DNA of 64,000 nt, taken from positions 1 through 64,000 of IMG/VR virus record IMGVR_UViG_3300028888_000084; one strand, given 5' to 3'. Below are positions 2,540 through 17,157 of this stretch, piece after piece. The notes under the pieces are model-generated. The model saw only the letters and a program-made list of their open reading frames with translations. It did not search any database and was not told where the DNA came from. The translations under genes and the position numbers were made by a program. The first letter of the stretch is position 1; each line of letters begins with the position of its first letter. This stretch comes from a virus (lineage: Duplodnaviria > Caudoviricetes).

Positions 2540-3502
2540 TTAAAGTAACCTAATTACTTTATCGGCGACTGTTTTGTAATTATCTGTTTTACCTTCAGTT
2601 AGTTTACTAAAAAACGTTTCGTTTAGTTCTTTAATGGCTTCAGATAATTTACGTTCACGTTTTATTATTCCATCTTTTACAAGATAAATTTCTATAACTT
2701 TGTAATACCTTCCAACACCAATTTTATTTATCAATTTTTGTTGAACCATATTATAGTATTCCACTGCTTTATTTGTGTTATACAATTCATAGATGTTTTC
2801 AGCATCAAATTCTGTTAATGTCTGATATTCAATGTCGGCGATAACTTGAATTTCCTTCTGACTTGCTCGGCGAAATTCGTCAGAAATATCAACAGGTCTG
2901 TAAACATCAACTTTTTCATCACCATATCTGTCTTTATCGGATTTTACAATTACAGTATTTTTTTCAAAAATTTCTTGAACATAAAATACTTCTTGGAATT
3001 TGATTATTTTTTGTTTTTCCATTTTGTTTAAAGTCCTAAATAAAACAGATTTGTAATTTCTTTGGCTTTCTTTGTATAACTGTTCCACAACTTCTATCGG
3101 AACATTTAATTGTGCAGATAATTTATTTCTGTGCCACAGATAACTGAAATATAATTCATTTACAAAACCTACATTTTCTGCAAGTTCGTTTATTGTAGCA
3201 CAGTATAATAAATTACCATTCATTTCTATATGGTTGCTTAAGATTTTGCACAACACAAATTCTAACAATTCATAGTATAAACTTCCTTGTGCTGACATAT
3301 CGGGCAAAGGTTCATTATACACTTTTTTGATTAGATACTTGTGTCCATCTTTTACGAAATCCATATATCTTTTTAATTCTTTTTCTTGGGCAACTTTTGA
3401 ATTACCCGATAAAATAGGAATTTTAAGAAGGCTACAAAGTGCTCTGTAATTGGGTATCAAGTCGCCGTCTTTCACACCAAATACGTTTTTTCGTTCAATC
3501 AC
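2540..3502 (-). CDS. hypothetical protein, possibly DNA-binding or origin-associated
   Basis: 320-aa ORF; N-terminal NYRALCSLL...GNSKVAQEKELKRY; lies next to the repeat-rich intergenic region; function is inference only. Confidence 0.6.
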   Translation of the reverse strand: MIERKNVFGVKDGDLIPNYRALCSLLKIPILSGNSKVAQEKELKRYMDFVKDGHKYLIKKVYNEPLPDMSAQGSLYYELLEFVLCKILSNHIEMNGNLLYCATINELAENVGFVNELYFSYLWHRNKLSAQLNVPIEVVEQLYKESQRNYKSVLFRTLNKMEKQKIIKFQEVFYVQEIFEKNTVIVKSDKDRYGDEKVDVYRPVDISDEFRRASQKEIQVIADIEYQTLTEFDAENIYELYNTNKAVEYYNMVQQKLINKIGVGRYYKVIEIYLVKDGIIKRERKLSEAIKELNETFFSKLTEGKTDNYKTVADKVIRLL

Positions 3503-11237: not shown

Positions 11238-13244
11238 TTAGAATGGTATAGAACCGTCAGTCCTAATTGAATGGGTAGCTGAATCGGTTATAGTAGTCCT
11301 ATCGGTTGTAGTAGTCCTATAAGTTCCCCTGTCTGCTACGGCTGATGATACATTAAATCCACTATCAAGTGTAGCATAATCTATATTGCTTGCCCAAGCT
11401 GGTGTTTCTGATAATGTTATTGTAGTATATCCTTCACCAGATAATGTTATTTCTGATTGTCTTGCGATCGGTATTGCTTCTTTTTGCTTTAATGATGTTT
11501 GACCTGTAATACAAGAATTACATATGATACGGCTATCACGATTTCCATTAGTATTTTGATTACAAATAGGACATTTAACTTTTGCACCTATAATTATTGG
11601 TGTATATATTTTTTTCTGCAATATATGTTTGATAGTTGTAGTATATTGATGCGGTATATCATTATAAGCCATATGATAAGGATATGTGTAATCCACATCA
11701 TATTCTTCTTTATTATGTGATACCATCCAATAATCGTCAATATCACAAAAACGACATATATTTTCTTCTAATAATTTACGAGTTTTTTCGGCAACAAGTG
11801 CGTTTGAATAGTGTTGTGGATATTCCCTTGAGAATATACAACGATTTTCTTGTGTATTTACATATATTAATTGTCGCCAGTTTTTAGAATTTCCCTTAAA
11901 TTTTCTTTTTTCTATTACATATTCATATTCTTTATCGTGGCACATATAAGCAACTAAGGTAGATTCGTCAAACATATAAGATGCACAACCTGCTGCGTGT
12001 TCACCTGTTACAAAGTGATGGCAACTACGCCAACCACTTTTTGTTATAGCAGATGTTAAATAATCATATGGATCTATAGATATATATAAATTTTGCTTAA
12101 TACATTTATCTTGTAATATTTTAGATAAGTCTATATCAAACTTTTCATCTTGAAATAAAGATGATAAAAATTTGGATAATTTCATACCCTTTTTAACTTC
12201 ACAATATTCCTTTAAAGAAGAATCACGATCACTTATTTTATTATTCAAATAATCACTTGCAGGAAAAGTATTTAATGTTAATGCGTATTTTGGATACATA
12301 TGATATAATTCAACTAATTGACGCTGTAAATCTAATTCTTGTTTTTCATATTCAACAGTCGTTTTTATATAAAGTTCGTTGTCGAATAACAAATAAAATT
12401 TATATTTACTTCTTGCCCAATCCTTTAACCAAATCTTAATACTATCAGTTGTTGCTCTTTCTTTTATTTCTTCGTGTTTATCTATATTGGCATTTACCAA
12501 ATTCATAATTCTTTTTATATCAACTTTGCTAATCATTTCGTCTATTAAATCTTCTTTATCAACATCTAAATTTCTAACCATATCGTCAATAGATGTGAAA
12601 ACTTTTTGTGGAACAAATTCTTTTTTTACTTTTTCTTCTATTACGAATTTATCAAACAATGCACTTGTCCAACCACTTTTTGCTACATTTTTTATTAACG
12701 AATCTATTAAATTTCTTTCACCTGACGATCCATTATGAAATGCGTCATAAGTAAAATAAAAGATATACTTTTCTTCTTCTTCATTTTTATAAACTATTAA
12801 TAATGGAAATTCAGTTTTTTCATTTTTAGATAAGCAAAAAGTTTTTTCTTGATTATAATATTTATTCATATCTTCGTCATATGGTAAATAAATCCAATCT
12901 TCAATTAAATCATATTTGTTAAAAATATTCATCATATCTGTAGAAAAATCATCGAAATCTTCTGCTGAATATTCATAATAATTATCTCCGTGAAAACCCC
13001 AGTTTACAAATACAATCGATTTTTGTGGTAAATCTTTACATAGATTTTTTGGTGATAATGGCTTCATATTATTATGTCCGTGATTATCCAATACCACATA
13101 AGTATAAGAATCAAATTGTTCATCACTCATTTTTTCTTTAAAGAAATCCCTTAAATAAAAGTCATACAGCTTTTCAAGAGAACTTGTAAATGAATGTGAA
13201 ACCAATTCAATTCCCCCTAAATCTAATTCTTCGTATTTTTTCAT
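11238..13244 (-). CDS. large hypothetical protein with SIDPxD..WxSCH domain; paralog of 7013-8530
   Basis: GMKLSKFLS, SIDPYDYLT, WRSCH, CPIC..CNSC; start moved to MKKYEE after an AAGGGGG RBS. Confidence 0.8.
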   Translation of the reverse strand: MKKYEELDLGGIELVSHSFTSSLEKLYDFYLRDFFKEKMSDEQFDSYTYVVLDNHGHNNMKPLSPKNLCKDLPQKSIVFVNWGFHGDNYYEYSAEDFDDFSTDMMNIFNKYDLIEDWIYLPYDEDMNKYYNQEKTFCLSKNEKTEFPLLIVYKNEEEEKYIFYFTYDAFHNGSSGERNLIDSLIKNVAKSGWTSALFDKFVIEEKVKKEFVPQKVFTSIDDMVRNLDVDKEDLIDEMISKVDIKRIMNLVNANIDKHEEIKERATTDSIKIWLKDWARSKYKFYLLFDNELYIKTTVEYEKQELDLQRQLVELYHMYPKYALTLNTFPASDYLNNKISDRDSSLKEYCEVKKGMKLSKFLSSLFQDEKFDIDLSKILQDKCIKQNLYISIDPYDYLTSAITKSGWRSCHHFVTGEHAAGCASYMFDESTLVAYMCHDKEYEYVIEKRKFKGNSKNWRQLIYVNTQENRCIFSREYPQHYSNALVAEKTRKLLEENICRFCDIDDYWMVSHNKEEYDVDYTYPYHMAYNDIPHQYTTTIKHILQKKIYTPIIIGAKVKCPICNQNTNGNRDSRIICNSCITGQTSLKQKEAIPIARQSEITLSGEGYTTITLSETPAWASNIDYATLDSGFNVSSAVADRGTYRTTTTDRTTITDSATHSIRTDGSIPF

Positions 13245-13360
13245 AAATAAAACCCCCTTTTGAATTTTTGGTTTGTTCAACCTTGACTATAAAAATTATA
13301 TCGCAAAAACATCTTACCTGTCAAGTTTTTGCATTATTTTAAATTTTTATTAAAAATTCA

Positions 13361-13391
13361 CAAAAGCAAGGCATTTGTCGCCTTGCTTTTG
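13361..13391 (-). terminator. Rho-independent terminator
   Basis: CAAAAGCAAGGC-7 nt-GCCTTGCTTTTG. Confidence 0.8.
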
Positions 13392-13407
13392 CTTTTATAT
13401 CAAATTG

Positions 13408-13761
13408 TGCTTGACTGTGCAGCCACGTGGGAAACCACACGTTATTACCTCATCCGATTAACCATTAATCATGGATTTAATAATATTTAATGACTTTGTT
13501 ATTTCAACTTTAAGAAAGAAGAATTTTAATGCTTAACCTTTATCCCTTAAATTTTGAACTTCTAACGGTATCAATGGACTCAGTTAAATAGATTCAACAA
13601 TCTATTTGGTGTCCACCACTAGAACGATTTTATCGTTTCAACACATTAACATATCGCTTTGTTGGTGCGGTATTGTTAAATAAAGGGGCGTCAATACGCC
13701 AGCTGTATCATTTACCCAATGATAAAGGGGAGATAAATCGTGGTTTTCGCACAACCAAGCA
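13408..13761 (-). ncRNA. candidate large structured ncRNA (~354 nt)
   Basis: 13-bp terminal stem UGCUUGGUUGUGC/GCACAGUCAAGCA with two G-U pairs; at least 5 internal hairpins; heptad repeat tract; no ORF; followed by a terminator. Confidence 0.7.
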
Positions 13762-13768
13762 TATAGGT

Positions 13769-14404
13769 TTAATCTATTAAATTGACAGTAATTTTAGTAA
13801 TTGTGTTGCTTTCTGATAATTTGTAATCAACTTCTGACTCAAATTCGTCAATTTCTTTTTCTAATTCATTGATTACATCATTTATTTTGCACGGATCTAC
13901 TAAATAATATTCATTATTATCATAGAATTGTTTTTCAAATTTGGCAACTACTTCAGGATCACTTTTATCTTTTTCGCCAATTACGGATTTCAGGTAACTT
14001 TCCAAATTATTCTTCAATGATTCATTCTTTGTTTCTATATTATGCATGGCATTTACATATTGTGCTTTTAATTCAGCAAGTAATTTTCTTTCCATATCTA
14101 TCATTGATTTTCTTTCTATTGCTTCAGCAACAGTATATTCTTTATCGCCAATAGTAATTTTCGTATTAGCATTTGATAAAACAATCGCAGATTTTACAAT
14201 CTTTTTGTTTTCCATTAAAGCCCTTACACTATCCAAATCTCCTTTTAATAAATCAGAATATTCTTGTATTGTGTAACTTCCGATTTTGTCATTTCCTTTC
14301 TTTGTGTAGGTTACAAAACTTTTGTTAAGTCCCTTCCAAATTTTATTGTCGTATAATTTTAATTCTGCTAATGCTTGATGTATAGACATCACTTTTTCTG
14401 CCAT
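13769..14404 (-). CDS. coiled-coil protein resembling the DIP1984/DUF6847 family
   Basis: MSIHQALAELK...SNANTKI.I....YTVAEAIERK...LEKEIDEFESEVDYKLSESN.IT.I; family assignment is from recollection. Confidence 0.6.
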   Translation of the reverse strand: MAEKVMSIHQALAELKLYDNKIWKGLNKSFVTYTKKGNDKIGSYTIQEYSDLLKGDLDSVRALMENKKIVKSAIVLSNANTKITIGDKEYTVAEAIERKSMIDMERKLLAELKAQYVNAMHNIETKNESLKNNLESYLKSVIGEKDKSDPEVVAKFEKQFYDNNEYYLVDPCKINDVINELEKEIDEFESEVDYKLSESNTITKITVNLID

Positions 14405-14445
14405 TTCACATTACCTCCTAAATTTTAATTTTTGAACTTTATAAA

Positions 14446-14553
14446 ATTATTAAAGCCACAATCGTTGCCTTCAGTATGTGGTAAACAGCAACTCACCCCT
14501 CACCCTTATACGTTCTTTTCCAAACGACCACATTTGGTGGTGGCTTTAATAAT
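14446..14553 (-). ncRNA. candidate ~108-nt structured RNA with possible pseudoknot
   Basis: 14-bp perfect closing stem ATTATTAAAGCCAC/GTGGCTTTAATAAT; internal GTTGC/GCAAC hairpin whose loop ACCACAT is complementary to ATGTGGT. Confidence 0.55.
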
Positions 14554-14626
14554 GGTGATAGCGGTCGGACTTACACCGACATCAACACCCCCTGCGGATG
14601 CCGTTTTATAATTAAACTACACTATC
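14553..14626 (-). tRNA. non-canonical tRNA-like RNA with encoded CCA (nominal anticodon CAG)
   Basis: Full cloverleaf: acceptor GATAGTG/CGCTATC + A + CCA; D stem GTTT/AAAC; anticodon stem GCATC/GGTGT; T stem GTCGG/CCGAC; all loops deviate from consensus. Confidence 0.7.
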
Positions 14627-14639
14627 ATATTTATTATGG

Positions 14640-15080
14640 TTATATTATATCATTATTGTAATATTTTGTCAAGTATTCTTTTATCATCTCCTGTGTTTTT
14701 TCTAAACCATTACGTTTTAGATATCTATTAACATATCCCCTTCCCCTTTTAATAATATAAGACCATTCGTTTCCACTATGAATTACACCATCTATTTCTA
14801 TTATATTTGTTGTTGACTTAAATCTTGAATTTTCTTCTTTTGTTATCCACCTACAATTATCGGGTGAATAATCTTTAGTGCTATCTATTCTATCAATAGT
14901 TAATATATCATTGTAACCATTATCAAATGACCATTTAAAAAAATTTTCTTGATTTATTAGCCAGTCATCACAGATTCTTATGTTTTTAGCACCGTAAAAC
15001 CTATAATCTTTATCTAATTTATTATAACATCTTGAATACATTTTTGCAAATATAATTTTTAATCGTCTGTTTTTATTCAT
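14640..15080 (-). CDS. HNH-type homing endonuclease-like protein
   Basis: MYSRCYN....Y..YGAK.I.ICDDW...TIDRIDS...YSPDNCRWIT..EN. Confidence 0.75.
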   Translation of the reverse strand: MNKNRRLKIIFAKMYSRCYNKLDKDYRFYGAKNIRICDDWLINQENFFKWSFDNGYNDILTIDRIDSTKDYSPDNCRWITKEENSRFKSTTNIIEIDGVIHSGNEWSYIIKRGRGYVNRYLKRNGLEKTQEMIKEYLTKYYNNDII

Positions 15081-15191
15081 ATGATAACCCCTTTATATGT
15101 ATCGTGGGACTGAGCAAATTGAGTAAAAACCAGTCCCACAATCTATTTTAAATTTATGGAGGACATAAGGTTTCATCAACCTTACAATCAT

Positions 15192-15220
15192 ATTCTATCA
15201 TAGGCATCACGAATTGTCAA
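15192..15220 (-). promoter_or_regulatory. sigmaA-type promoter driving the HNH/tRNA-like/ncRNA operon
   Basis: TTGACA-17 bp-TAGAAT. Confidence 0.7.
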
Positions 15221-16548: not shown

Positions 16549-17157
16549 TTAATTTATCCATTTTATAATAGGATCGCCTTGAAATCCCTTTTCCCAAACA
16601 AACCAGCCATAAGCCACAGCACTTGAAAATTTGTTATCAAAATCACCATTTTTACAACATTTAAGCCTTGAGCTTGATACGTATATAACTTTAGGTGGAT
16701 ACTTCTTAAACATTTCTTTTCTTGATTTTCCTTCTAAAAAAGTAAGTTTAAGAAACATAGCGACTTTGTGTCCATCTTGTATAAGATCCATAGCCTTTTC
16801 TACAAAGGCTTGAGCGAAACTATATGGTGGATTTGTGATTATATCGCCATTCCACAGGTTTTGTGAATCTGGCACAACTTTTAGAAAATCTATAATTTCC
16901 GTCTGTGGGTAACCCCTGTCTATTATATCACTACACCTTACATTATGTCCAGTATTTTTTAAAACTTCTGCTAAATGTCCACCACCTACTGCACTCTCCC
17001 ATATATTATTATCAAATTCTTCCTCTTTTAGTAATAATTCCATAGCTAAAGGTTCTGTCGCATAATAGTCATTAATTTCACGTTCTTCTTCCGTATGACT
17101 ACTTGCACCTAAAATTTTCCAAACTGATTTGTCGTTACCTTTCCAATCTTTCGACAT
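16549..17157 (-). CDS. DNA N6-adenine methyltransferase
   Basis: DYYAT, WESAVGGG SAM-binding motif, ITNPPY catalytic motif. Confidence 0.85.
   Translation of the reverse strand: MSKDWKGNDKSVWKILGASSHTEEEREINDYYATEPLAMELLLKEEEFDNNIWESAVGGGHLAEVLKNTGHNVRCSDIIDRGYPQTEIIDFLKVVPDSQNLWNGDIITNPPYSFAQAFVEKAMDLIQDGHKVAMFLKLTFLEGKSRKEMFKKYPPKVIYVSSSRLKCCKNGDFDNKFSSAVAYGWFVWEKGFQGDPIIKWIN

What the first reader, a model, noticed from the sequence alone, without database searches (positions are those of the whole stretch)
13361..15220. RNA-rich operon: tRNA mimic + pseudoknot RNA + coiled-coil protein + large ncRNA, a candidate undescribed ribonucleoprotein system
Seen: one sigmaA promoter (15192-15220) and one terminator (13361-13391) bracket, in order, an HNH gene, a non-canonical tRNA-like RNA, a ~108-nt closed-stem RNA, a 211-aa coiled-coil protein and a ~354-nt structured RNA. 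About 540 nt of this unit is non-coding and base-paired, in a genome that is otherwise densely coding. It sits directly downstream of the DNA-ligase / PNK-HD / RNA-ligase cluster. Inference: the protein and the RNA(s) form an RNP, and the tRNA-like element may serve as an RNase P/Z processing signal or as a decoy for host anticodon nucleases.
Basis: partly seen in the sequence, partly recalled or inferred. Interest (0 to 1): 0.88.

Follow-up and report, generated by a model that had tools for sequence, protein, structure and literature searches.

The report
Phage heptad-repeat RNA with partner protein
Behind a small helical-protein gene this sheep-gut phage encodes a real, abundant, knotted 354-base non-coding RNA; the same gene-plus-RNA pair occurs in hundreds of phages including model phage T5, is almost uncatalogued and has no known job, while the HNH gene and the 108-base hairpin RNA beside it are dispensable insertions.

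Summary
The conserved core is two parts: the 211-aa gene (13769-14404, minus strand; PHROG 1491; T5 gene T5.085) and the 354-nt RNA right behind it (13408-13761). This pair recurs in 79 of 79 testable viral loci and about 42 of 44 independent bacterial-genome loci. It is always on the same strand and in the same order, and no other gene recurs beside it. The RNA has a covarying closing helix, a long-range pseudoknot, a 7-nt-period AAAG track and a conserved 3' domain. In a sheep-gut metatranscriptome it forms a discrete contig (13409-13743) at 25-80 times the depth of its own mRNA. The protein is predicted to form a homodimer and has no known family or fold. The tRNA-like element passes Rfam's tRNA threshold (41.8 bits) despite its aberrant loops. 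Relatives carry tRNAs, tmRNAs or Y-RNA-type tRNA mimics beside or inside the RNA. One close relative lacks the HNH gene and another lacks the 108-nt element. Only the first 86 nt of related RNAs are catalogued (Rfam RAGATH-27, function unknown). An RNP is likely but binding is untested. This scan has found the same module before on other DNA (at least 18 notes).

The parts
15192..15220 (-). Upstream sigma-70-type promoter (TTGACA-17-TAGAAT with TG). It is probably the ancestral promoter of the tRNA / gene / RNA unit.
   Evidence: It is retained in both relatives laid.
14640..15080 (-). HNH homing-endonuclease gene. It is a mobile insertion and not part of the module.
   Evidence: PHROG 3377/374, E about 1e-33. 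A 35.7-kb contig of a ~95% identical relative joins 14664 directly to 15062. No homologue lies beside the module in other lineages.
14644..14672 (-). Second promoter, a perfect match (TTGACA-17-TGnTATAAT). It lies inside the HNH 3' end, about 10-20 nt before the tRNA.
   Evidence: 12/12 match.
14553..14626 (-). Aberrant tRNA (nominal Leu-CAG, CCA encoded). All four stems are present. The D-loop has no GG, the T-loop reads UGUAAGU, and position 33 is G.
   Evidence: ARAGORN. Rfam RF00005 scores 41.8 bits against a threshold of 29, E 6e-8, in a small-region search. Fold z -2.7. Relatives carry normal tRNAs at the same position.
14445..14552 (-). 108-nt closed-stem element. It is a lineage-specific indel, dispensable, and not conserved elsewhere.
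   Evidence: Fold z -3.6. A 4-kb contig of a ~98% identical relative skips 14437-14543, flanked by the 5-nt direct repeat TAAAG. It is single-copy in the genome and has no match in isolated phages. No Rfam hit above noise.
13769..14404 (-). 211-aa acidic helical-bundle protein (PHROG 1491; T5.085 family), predicted to form a homodimer. It is the partner gene of the RNA.
   Evidence: PHROG 1491, E 4e-59. It is present in 744 phage records. AlphaFold2 pLDDT 93. pI 5.1. Dimer prediction. No Pfam, NCBIfam or PADLOC family.
13408..13761 (-). The conserved 354-nt structured ncRNA (whole extent, closed by helix P1).
13750..13761 (-). P1 5' strand. It starts 8 nt after the stop codon.
   Evidence: It pairs with 13408-13419. 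All 12 pairs covary across 30 lineages.
13743..13749 (-). Conserved (C/U)GAAAAC motif. The apparent 5' end of the abundant RNA lies at 13743.
   Evidence: The motif follows the P1 5' strand in nearly every locus. An adapter is joined at 13743 in the metatranscriptome contig.
13740..13746 (-). 5' strand (AAACCAC) of the long-range pseudoknot. It pairs with GUGGUUU at 13432-13438.
   Evidence: Cognate 5'/3' segments pair better than non-cognate ones: 5.9 against 4.2 bp, with 0 of 2000 permutations reaching the observed value.
13707..13730 (-). Proposed H-type pseudoknot (CCCC/GGG crossed with AUCAUU/AAUGAU).
   Evidence: Seen by eye in at least 10 lineages, each with a different stem-2 sequence. 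A generic statistical test was weak.
13481..13561 (-). A-rich 7-nt-period repeat track. In this member it is degenerate, with only 3 exact AAAG.
   Evidence: Family-wide there are 6.3 AAAG per 120 nt against 1.3 expected. Spacing peaks at 7, 14, 21 and 28 nt. nhmmer homology.
13420..13480 (-). Conserved 3' domain. It comprises AUUAAAUCC; helix Pa (13470-13474 with 13423-13427); a 5-nt bulge; helix Pb (13462-13464 with 13428-13430); a hairpin; and GGCUG.
   Evidence: Covariation. Covariance model R1 scores 69.1 bits here and finds a single hit in the 99-kb genome.
13408..13419 (-). P1 3' strand. The 3' end of the abundant RNA falls at 13408/13409.
   Evidence: The contig break lies at 13408/13409.
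13360..13392 (-). Intrinsic terminator of the unit.

Best explanation
The locus holds one copy of a widespread phage module with two parts. The first is a gene for an acidic, helical, probably homodimeric ~210-aa protein (PHROG 1491, T5.085 family). The second, directly behind it, is a ~250-490-nt non-coding RNA (354 nt here).

Shown:
- The RNA is closed by a covarying helix (P1).
- It carries a conserved (C/U)GAAAAC motif.
- It has a long-range pseudoknot that ties its 5' end into its 3' domain.
- It displays a single-stranded track of 7-nt-period AAAG units.
- It has a conserved 3' domain.
- It accumulates in vivo as a discrete species, far above the level of its own mRNA.
- It is genetically inseparable from the protein gene across about 47 protein lineages.

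Inferred:
- The gene and the RNA are transcribed together, with a tRNA in front, from the promoters at 15220 and 14672 to the terminator at 13392-13360.
- The RNA is cut or trimmed to the P1-closed core.
- Protein dimers then load onto the heptad track, one unit per 7 nt, in the manner of HutP or TRAP. The result is a ribonucleoprotein.
- tRNA-shaped parts recur in the family: a separate aberrant tRNA here, and embedded tRNAs or Y-RNA-type tRNA mimics in other lineages. This suggests the particle deals with tRNA-handling or translation factors of the host, for example as a decoy or sponge.

The HNH gene and the 108-nt hairpin are later insertions into this unit. The existence of the RNA and its linkage to the gene are near certain (>0.95). 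Physical RNP formation is about 0.55. The tRNA-related role is about 0.3.
For: Linkage:
- An iterated nhmmer profile seeded from 13420-13561 finds the element in 78 of 80 IMG/VR loci that hold the protein. Every hit is on the + strand and 130-500 nt after the stop codon, with none elsewhere.
- The 79th locus is found with filters off, and the 80th is truncated at the gene's end.
- In an independent set of 44 loci from bacterial genomes, covariance model R1 hits 40, plus 2 more with filters off.
- There is exactly one hit per full record in this genome, in four other viral records and in T5.
- No other gene family recurs beside the module across the 47 lineages.

Structure:
- On a sequence-only MAFFT alignment of 30 full-length members, 94.3% of cells pair against 60.6% in shuffles. 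There are 197 double-change cells against 52. The covariation score is 0.84 against 0.21, and slid controls reach at most 0.16.
- The independent set gives 91% against 69% pairing and 66 against 18 double changes.
- The pseudoknot strands pair better in cognate than in non-cognate combinations, with 0 of 2000 permutations reaching the observed value.
- The heptad period is shown.

Expression:
- A 358-nt contig from a sheep-gut metatranscriptome matches 13409-13743 at 100% identity, with depth 201.
- Neighbouring contigs have depths 2.5, 3.7 and 8.2.
- Illumina adapter sequence is joined directly at 13743.

Protein:
- The AlphaFold2 model is confident.
- Homodimer prediction: score 0.63, best of 3 controls 0.00. 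That mark was reached by 20 of 30 proteins solved as pairs of one chain and by 1 of 23 solved as single chains. The runs agree in at least 84% of contacts, and partner pLDDT is at least 88. The tool notes that the model supports binding but does not show it.

tRNA theme:
- 42 of 60 viral loci have same-strand tRNAs within 2.5 kb, and two have tmRNAs directly upstream.
- tRNAs lie inside the RNA in the T5-like metagenomic group and in L061, L070, L078 and L128.
- The tRNA-like module of Rfam YrlA hits inside the RNA in L058 (43.9 bits), L062 and L122.

Insertions.
Against: - No experiment or computation here shows that the protein binds the RNA.
- The protein is acidic (pI 5.1) and has no recognisable RNA-binding fold. 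Its few conserved basic residues cluster at one end of the bundle.
- Many prophage copies have no tRNA nearby. This member and T5 have no tRNA-shaped part inside the RNA, so the tRNA link may only reflect co-transcription in tRNA islands.
- The expression evidence rests on one study's assembled contigs, not on raw reads. The end at 13743 could be a reverse-transcriptase stop at the pseudoknot rather than a true 5' end. If it is a true end, it removes the P1 5' strand and half of the pseudoknot strand.
- The heptad track is degenerate in this window (3 exact AAAG).
Confidence: 0.6

Rival explanations
1. The RNA works alone, as GOLLD and ROOL RNAs appear to: an RNA-only fold or assembly. The protein gene is linked only because it supplies the transcript, or because the RNA stabilises or regulates that mRNA in cis as a 3' UTR element. 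On this view there is no stable RNP.
For: - The RNA is far more abundant than the mRNA, so the stoichiometry is not obviously 1:1.
- The protein is acidic and has no RNA-binding fold.
- The P1 5' strand stays on the mRNA side of the apparent cut at 13743. There it could protect the mRNA 3' end by pairing with the RNA (inference).
- Large phage RNAs near tRNAs without known protein partners exist (PMC5737381; bioRxiv 10.1101/2024.12.08.627333).
Against: - The order and adjacency are kept over protein identities down to about 28% and across hosts of several phyla, while every other neighbour changes. That is hard to explain by shared transcription alone.
- A 7-nt-period single-stranded track looks like a platform for a repeated ligand.
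- AAAG-type units also lie in front of the gene's own ribosome-binding site in many members.
Confidence: 0.2
2. A toxin-antitoxin-like or nuclease-substrate pair. The protein is an RNA-cutting or otherwise harmful enzyme. It processes the repeat RNA and is held in check by it, as ToxN is by ToxI.
For: - A repeat RNA lies next to a small protein gene.
- A discrete RNA end lies in the conserved GAAAA/C motif.
- Conserved polar residues (H9, S77, N78, E97, R98, K99, D193, S197, E198, N200) converge near the small sheet.
Against: - The order is gene then RNA. The repeats are 7 nt, not about 36 nt. The RNA has a large non-repeat fold.
- There is no match to any PADLOC model and no nuclease fold.
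- The module sits in lytic phages such as T5, not in defence islands.
Confidence: 0.07
3. One reading: all five parts (HNH, tRNA mimic, 108-nt RNA, protein, 354-nt RNA) form one dedicated RNA-rich operon or RNP system.
For: All five lie between one outer promoter and one terminator on one strand. An RNA contig spans the ORF, the 108-nt element and part of the tRNA.
Against: - The HNH gene is absent from one close relative and the 108-nt element from another.
- Neither recurs in any other lineage.
- A second strong promoter lies after the HNH coding body.
Confidence: 0.04
4. The conserved stretch is a DNA-level element (iterons, an origin, or a protein-binding array) or a small unannotated coding gene, not an RNA.
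For: Short phased repeats are typical of origins, and the region is AT-rich.
Against: - Compensatory changes, including strand-specific G-U pairs, occur across helices up to 340 nt apart.
- All 120 or so hits are on the gene's strand.
- A 7-nt period does not match the DNA helical repeat.
- An RNA contig lies at 25-80 times the flanking depth.
- No conserved open frame is seen: indels are not in threes, and stop codons occur in the repeats.
Confidence: 0.02

Closest known systems
RAGATH-27 RNA motif (Rfam RF03100, 86 positions, orphan candidate sRNA)
   Same: Its consensus begins with UUCAuUGuUUAcCGAAAACUUuAAAC. That is the P1 5' strand plus the CGAAAAC motif plus the start of the pseudoknot region, as found in one lineage of this family. 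Relatives L057 and L075 match the whole model at exactly the 5' end of the RNA (38.5 and 32.7 bits).
   Different: The Rfam model covers only the first 86 nt and annotates one hairpin. It contains no closing helix, no long-range pseudoknot, no heptad track, no 3' domain and no protein partner. All matches are below its threshold of 76.1 bits. The window's own RNA gives no match even at E<=10.
Bacterial Y RNAs (YrlA, Rfam RF02553) with Ro60/Rsr
   Same: Both are modular RNAs closed by pairing of the 5' and 3' ends and encoded next to a partner protein gene. In three lineages the variable region holds a permuted tRNA mimic (T-arm, closed acceptor hairpin, D-arm) that matches positions 23-85 of the YrlA model. 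From memory, rsr-Y RNA loci often sit with RNA-repair genes. Here an RNA ligase and a PNK-HD gene lie upstream.
   Different: There is no TROVE/Ro gene in this phage. The partner is an unrelated helical protein. The heptad track, the pseudoknots and the 3' domain have no Y-RNA counterpart. This window's RNA and T5's lack the tRNA mimic. All YrlA scores are below its threshold of 69 bits.
GOLLD and ROOL large RNAs of phages and prophages
   Same: All are large, ornate RNAs of phages or prophages, often beside tRNA genes, abundantly transcribed, and of unknown function (PMC5737381; 10.1101/2024.12.08.627333).
   Different: There is no sequence or structure match (Rfam scans). This RNA is smaller (250-490 nt), has a strict partner gene and carries a heptad repeat track.
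HutP-hut leader and TRAP-trp leader (Bacillus): oligomeric proteins that read evenly spaced short RNA repeats
   Same: A row of short purine-rich units at a fixed spacing in single-stranded RNA. From memory, HutP reads NAG units with a 7-nt period and TRAP reads 11 GAG/UAG units.
   Different: Those are cis-regulatory leaders bound by ring-shaped beta-rich proteins. Here the track is one domain of a stable trans RNA, and the protein is a helical dimer. No fold similarity was found.
tmRNA with SmpB
   Same: Both are pseudoknot-rich RNAs of about 350 nt with paired ends and a small dedicated protein. Phage tmRNAs lie directly upstream of the homologous gene in two loci. A GCGAAAC-like motif follows the closing helix (from memory of E. 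coli ssrA).
   Different: There is no tRNA-like acceptor end with CCA and no tag reading frame. The Rfam tmRNA models give no hit above noise. The protein is not SmpB-like.

Membership tests
RAGATH-27 (RF03100) | Score at or above the Rfam gathering threshold (76.1 bits) | tested here: not met
   Window: no match at E<=10. Relatives score 38.5 and 32.7 bits. The Rfam family is a narrow fragment of this larger RNA class.
PHROG 1491 / T5.085 protein family | Full-length profile match | tested here: met
   E 4.4e-59 over residues 4-208 against profile positions 3-210 of 211. 30% identity to T5.085 over 202 residues.
Heptad-repeat RNA class (this report) | Closing helix P1 directly followed by (C/U)GAAAAC and directly preceded on the 3' side by GGCUG | tested here: met
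   13750-13761 pairs with 13408-13419. CGAAAAC lies at 13743-13749 and GGCUG at 13420-13424.
Heptad-repeat RNA class (this report) | Conserved 3' domain (Pa, Pb, hairpin) matching covariance model R1 | tested here: met
   69.1 bits, E 1e-9, the only hit in the 99-kb genome. The window sequence was in the seed alignment, so this match is partly by construction.
Heptad-repeat RNA class (this report) | Track of 7-nt-period AAAG units | tested here: inconclusive
   The family mean is 6.3 exact AAAG per 120 nt, while the window has 3. The region aligns to the track by nhmmer but is degenerate.
tRNA (RF00005), for 14553-14626 | Score at or above the gathering threshold (29 bits) over the full model | tested here: met
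   41.8 bits over model positions 1-71. The scans missed it.
tRNA (RF00005), for 14553-14626 | Universal loop residues (G18 G19, T54 psi55 C56, U33) and, for Leu, a long variable arm | tested here: not met
   Read from the sequence and the alignment. The D-loop is AAUUAUA, the T-loop is UGUAAGU, position 33 is G, and the variable region is short.
Y RNA (YrlA, RF02553) with Ro | Rfam threshold (69 bits) and a TROVE-domain partner gene | tested here: not met
   No YrlA hit in the window. Relatives score 25-44 bits on the tRNA-like module only. There is no TROVE match in the genome, which is 84% complete.
GOLLD / ROOL / tmRNA | Match to the Rfam models | tested here: not met
   None at gathering threshold or at E<=10 over this RNA.
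Type III toxin-antitoxin (ToxIN-like) | ToxN-type endoribonuclease and tandem ~36-nt antitoxin repeats upstream of the toxin gene | tested here: not met
   No PADLOC model matches. The repeats are 7 nt and lie downstream of the gene.
DIP1984 / DUF6847 (PDB 3KDQ) | Sequence-profile or clear fold match | tested here: inconclusive
   3kdq is the best structural match. Foldseek gives E 0.018 and target-normalised TM-score 0.55. VIA-align gives Z 9.5 but rmsd 9.2 A. No Pfam hit in any of 28 members. The Atlas structural match has TM 0.47-0.56.

The most novel reading that the evidence does not exclude
The pair is a previously undescribed kind of viral ribonucleoprotein. Dimers of an acidic helical protein line up on a 7-nt-period single-stranded track. 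The track is held out by a doubly pseudoknotted RNA scaffold, which carries or travels with a tRNA-shaped module. The particle titrates or misdirects a universal host factor of tRNA or translation biology, such as anticodon nucleases, tRNA-processing enzymes or ribosome-associated factors. That would explain why the pair is kept from T5 to Bacillota, Pseudomonas, Vibrio and rumen phages.
Probability: 0.3. Interest if true: 0.9.

Novelty: new variant of a known kind. Interest (0 to 1): 0.8.

Why it matters
A structured RNA of about 350 nt sits unannotated in the classic model phage T5 (NC_005859 43140-43496, behind T5.085) and in hundreds of sequenced phages and prophages. It has a strictly linked partner gene that is mislabelled 'tail fiber protein'. 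Large orphan RNAs of phages such as GOLLD and ROOL remain functionally unexplained. This one comes with a protein handle, a simple repeat track that can be mutated, and a genetically tractable host-phage system. Its function is therefore directly testable. If it acts on tRNA or translation factors, it would add a new player to the phage-host contest over tRNAs. For annotation, the work shows that RAGATH-27 is only the first quarter of a larger RNA. It also shows that the 'tail fiber' label of PHROG 1491 is unsupported.

Tried and rejected
The 61-98% identical relatives P0001-P0009 could therefore not be fetched, and covariation in the tRNA and the 108-nt element could not be tested.
- The search for related loci with the single protein gave only one weak locus. 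The alignment query worked.
- Rfam at gathering threshold gave nothing in the window. The weak hits (csRNA, snoRNAs, twister-P1 at 15.5 bits) are noise.
- Protein function: Pfam, NCBIfam and PADLOC gave nothing. The PDB sequence search found only coiled-coil noise. Foldseek and VIA-align found only generic helical bundles apart from 3kdq. The ESM Atlas returned only hypothetical viral clusters.
- A generic search for the 5' H-type pseudoknot scored 12.5 against 10.5 in shuffles. This is too weak to claim statistically, so that knot rests on inspection.
- Column-wise counts for the long-range pseudoknot were diluted by register shifts. The cognate versus non-cognate test replaced them.
- Phage K lnc001 and lnc002 (PMC9241854) were checked as possible members. 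They give no model hit, and phage K has no homologue of the protein.
- The 108-nt element was checked as a possible repeated mobile element. It is single-copy and has no phage matches.
- Literature searches found nothing on T5.085, RAGATH-27 or stable RNAs of T5 at this position. The supplement of PMC5737381 is not held.
- RNA-run stretches without cover (for example 13744-13792 and most of the HNH gene in X2) are not interpreted.
- The idea that the module is tied to the RNA-repair genes upstream was dropped, because no neighbour recurs across lineages.
Full report
**What the window is**

The window is part of a 99,360-bp IMG/VR phage record, 84% complete. It has about 29% G+C and its genes lie on the minus strand. 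Public runs place the phage in sheep and cattle gut.

**Anatomy of the flagged stretch, read on the minus strand**

- Promoter-like site at 15220-15192 (11/12 match with a TG extension).
- A leader of about 110 nt with hairpins.
- An HNH endonuclease gene at 15080-14640 (PHROG 3377, E 3e-33).
- A second, perfect extended -10 promoter at 14672-14644, inside the end of that gene.
- A tRNA-shaped element at 14626-14553.
- A 108-nt closed stem at 14552-14445.
- A 211-aa ORF at 14404-13769.
- 354 non-coding bases.
- A strong terminator at 13392-13360.

Upstream lie an ATP-dependent DNA ligase, a methyltransferase-like ORF, a PNK-HD protein and an Rnl1-type RNA ligase.

**The protein**

- It matches PHROG 1491 end to end (E 4e-59). 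That family's 'tail fiber' label has no support.
- tblastn finds it in 744 phage records. These include T5-like phages, Pseudomonas, Vibrio, Erwinia, Bacillus, Lactococcus and Brevibacillus phages.
- In T5 it is T5.085.
- AlphaFold2 gives a confident model (pLDDT 93) of long helices with a small three-stranded sheet at one end.
- No Pfam, NCBIfam or PADLOC family matches.
- Fold searches return only generic helical bundles. The best match is 3kdq, a Corynebacterium protein of unknown function.
- The protein is acidic (pI 5.1).
- A homodimer is predicted: score 0.63, best of 3 controls 0.00. That mark was reached by 20 of 30 proteins solved as pairs of one chain and by 1 of 23 solved as single chains. 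The runs agree in at least 84% of contacts, and partner pLDDT is at least 88.

**The 354-nt RNA is the key element**

Finding the family:
- I fetched 80 viral loci around homologues of the protein.
- A single-sequence nhmmer search seeded with the window's 13420-13561 already hit the same position downstream of the gene in distant phages.
- After iteration, 78 of 80 loci had the element. Every hit was on the gene's strand and 130-500 nt after the stop codon, with no hit anywhere else.
- One of the two remaining loci ends at the gene. The other is found with filters off.

Common architecture, from reading the regions and a helix search:
- A closing helix P1 of 9-19 bp. Its 5' strand starts 0-60 nt after the stop codon.
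- P1's 5' strand is always followed by (C/U)GAAAAC, a motif that played no part in the helix search.
- P1's 3' strand directly follows an invariant GGCUG.
- Lengths range from 250 to 490 nt.

Covariation:
- On a sequence-only MAFFT alignment of 30 full-length members, P1 and two helices of the 3' domain pair in 94.3% of cells against 60.6% in shuffles.
- The same alignment has 197 double-change cells against 52.
- The covariation score is 0.84 against 0.21, and slid controls reach at most 0.16.
- The segment after GAAA (AAACCAC here) pairs with GUGGUUU inside the 3' domain, which forms a long-range pseudoknot.
- In an alignment-free test of that knot, cognate strands pair better than non-cognate ones. 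None of 2000 permutations reached the observed value.
- A second, local H-type knot after the motif is visible in at least 10 lineages. It did not pass a crude statistical test.

The repeat track:
- Between the knots and the 3' domain lies a track of AAAG units. There are 6.3 per 120 nt against 1.3 expected.
- Spacing peaks at 7, 14, 21 and 28 nt.
- The track is degenerate in this window.

**Independent confirmation**

- Covariance model R1, built from the 3' domain, finds exactly one hit per complete record. This holds in this genome, in four other viral records and in T5.
- In 44 loci from bacterial and archaeal genome assemblies that were not used for the model, it hits 40. Two more appear with filters off, one is weak and one is absent.
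- Covariation holds in that set as well: 91% against 69% pairing, and 66 against 18 double changes.
- Across 47 protein lineages (70% identity), no other gene family recurs beside the pair.

**Expression**

- In a sheep-gut metatranscriptome, a 358-nt contig matches 13409-13743 exactly, at depth 201.
- The contig downstream (13258-13408) has depth 2.5. The contigs over the ORF have depths 3.7 and 8.2.
- Illumina adapter sequence is joined directly at 13743, the last base of CGAAAAC. The other end falls at the outer end of P1, 16 nt before the terminator stem.
- The RNA is therefore a discrete species, 25-80 times more abundant than its own mRNA.
- The end at 13743 is either a processing site or a reverse-transcriptase stop at the knot.
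- These are assembled contigs from one study, so levels and ends need raw-read or Northern confirmation.

**What is not part of the module**

- A 35.7-kb contig of a ~95% identical relative joins 14664 to 15062, so it has no HNH gene.
- A 4-kb contig of a ~98% identical relative joins 14436 to 14544. It lacks the 108-nt element, and the gap is flanked by the 5-nt repeat TAAAG.
- The 108-nt element is single-copy here and has no match in isolated phages.
- No lineage outside this phage group has either element beside the pair.

**The tRNA theme**

- The 74-nt element scores 41.8 bits against Rfam's tRNA model (threshold 29) when the search region is small. The larger scans lost it.
- It has all four stems, discriminator A and CCA. 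It lacks G18 G19 and the T-psi-C signature, and it has G33.
- In relatives the gene sits in same-strand tRNA arrays: 42 of 60 loci have tRNAs within 2.5 kb.
- Two loci have a phage tmRNA directly upstream, one standard and one permuted.
- Several lineages carry real tRNAs inside the RNA.
- Three lineages carry, inside the RNA, a permuted tRNA mimic that matches the tRNA-like module of the Y RNA YrlA. L058 scores 43.9 bits, E 4e-7.
- Many prophage copies have no tRNA at all. The tRNA-shaped part is therefore recurrent but facultative.

**Prior knowledge**

- Rfam RAGATH-27 (86 nt, orphan) matches the first 86 nt of two relatives below threshold. Its consensus is the P1 5' strand plus CGAAAAC plus the start of the knot. 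Only a fragment has been catalogued, without its pairing partner.
- The region is unannotated in nearly all of 451 T5-like records.
- I found no paper on it.
- The abundant lncRNAs of phage K are unrelated.
- This scan has met the same module on other genomes at least 18 times. Follow-up notes there reached similar conclusions. Those notes are not independent evidence. I read them only after my own tests.

**Mechanism**

Shown:
- A conserved, knotted, abundant RNA.
- Its genetic linkage to a probably dimeric protein.

Inferred:
- Co-transcription of the gene and the RNA.
- Trimming of the transcript to the P1-closed core.
- Loading of protein dimers on the heptad track.
- A role connected with tRNA or translation factors.

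Rivals:
- An RNA-only function with linkage in cis.
- A toxin-antitoxin-like pair.
- The five-part operon.
- A DNA-level element.

Each rival is weighed in its own section of this report.

**Verdict**

- It is also much broader: hundreds of phages, including T5.

Noticed in passing
L084 3731-3957 (NC_005859.1 40848-41566): About 1.6 kb downstream of this module, T5 has an annotated misc_RNA 'rnaX', described as a stable RNA with unknown functions (719 nt). It is a different locus from the RNA described here.
   Followed up: no
L028-L055 about 3320-3407, also L077-L083 about 3327-3399: In a T5-like metagenomic group, the tRNA embedded inside the RNA changes its nominal anticodon between close relatives (ata, gcc, atg, gta, or undetermined). 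It still scores as a good tRNA (58.9 bits in L038).
   Followed up: no
L021 2095-2453; L062 1986-2366: Phage-encoded tmRNAs lie directly upstream of the homologous protein gene. One is standard (RF00023, 63.8 bits) and one is permuted (RF04321, 59.6 bits).
   Followed up: partly
L028-L055, e.g. L028 4530-4610: The tRNA arrays beside the module contain CUA-anticodon tRNAs, which ARAGORN labels 'Pyl'. These are putative amber suppressors.
   Followed up: no
window 14608: A second metatranscriptome contig (13993-14608, depth 8.2) also begins 22 letters into its record, as the adapter-bearing RNA contig does. This suggests a discrete end inside the D-loop of the aberrant tRNA. The loose letters were not shown, so this is unverified.
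   Followed up: no
window 14405-14445 and the 60 nt before the start codon in relatives: AAAG/AAAA units at roughly 7-nt spacing run into the gene's own Shine-Dalgarno region (AUAAAG UUCAAAA AUUAAAA UUUAGGAGG here). Many relatives have AAAG fused to the SD sequence (AAAGGAG). This may indicate autoregulation or may be only SD likeness.
   Followed up: partly
Five of the fetched loci, upstream of the focal gene; also L001 2116-2730: Some phages carry a second, upstream paralogue of the protein gene. In Jenst it appears to lack an RNA of its own (JENST_14, inside the tRNA array).
   Followed up: no
window 13295-13324: A perfect consensus promoter (TTGACA-18-TATAAT) lies immediately after the terminator. 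It drives the next gene, 11238-13280.
   Followed up: no
window 16549-17157: The ORF between the DNA ligase and the PNK-HD gene matches only the C-terminal half of a DNA methyltransferase family (PHROG 799, profile positions 185-380 of 458). It may be a truncated or split gene.
   Followed up: no
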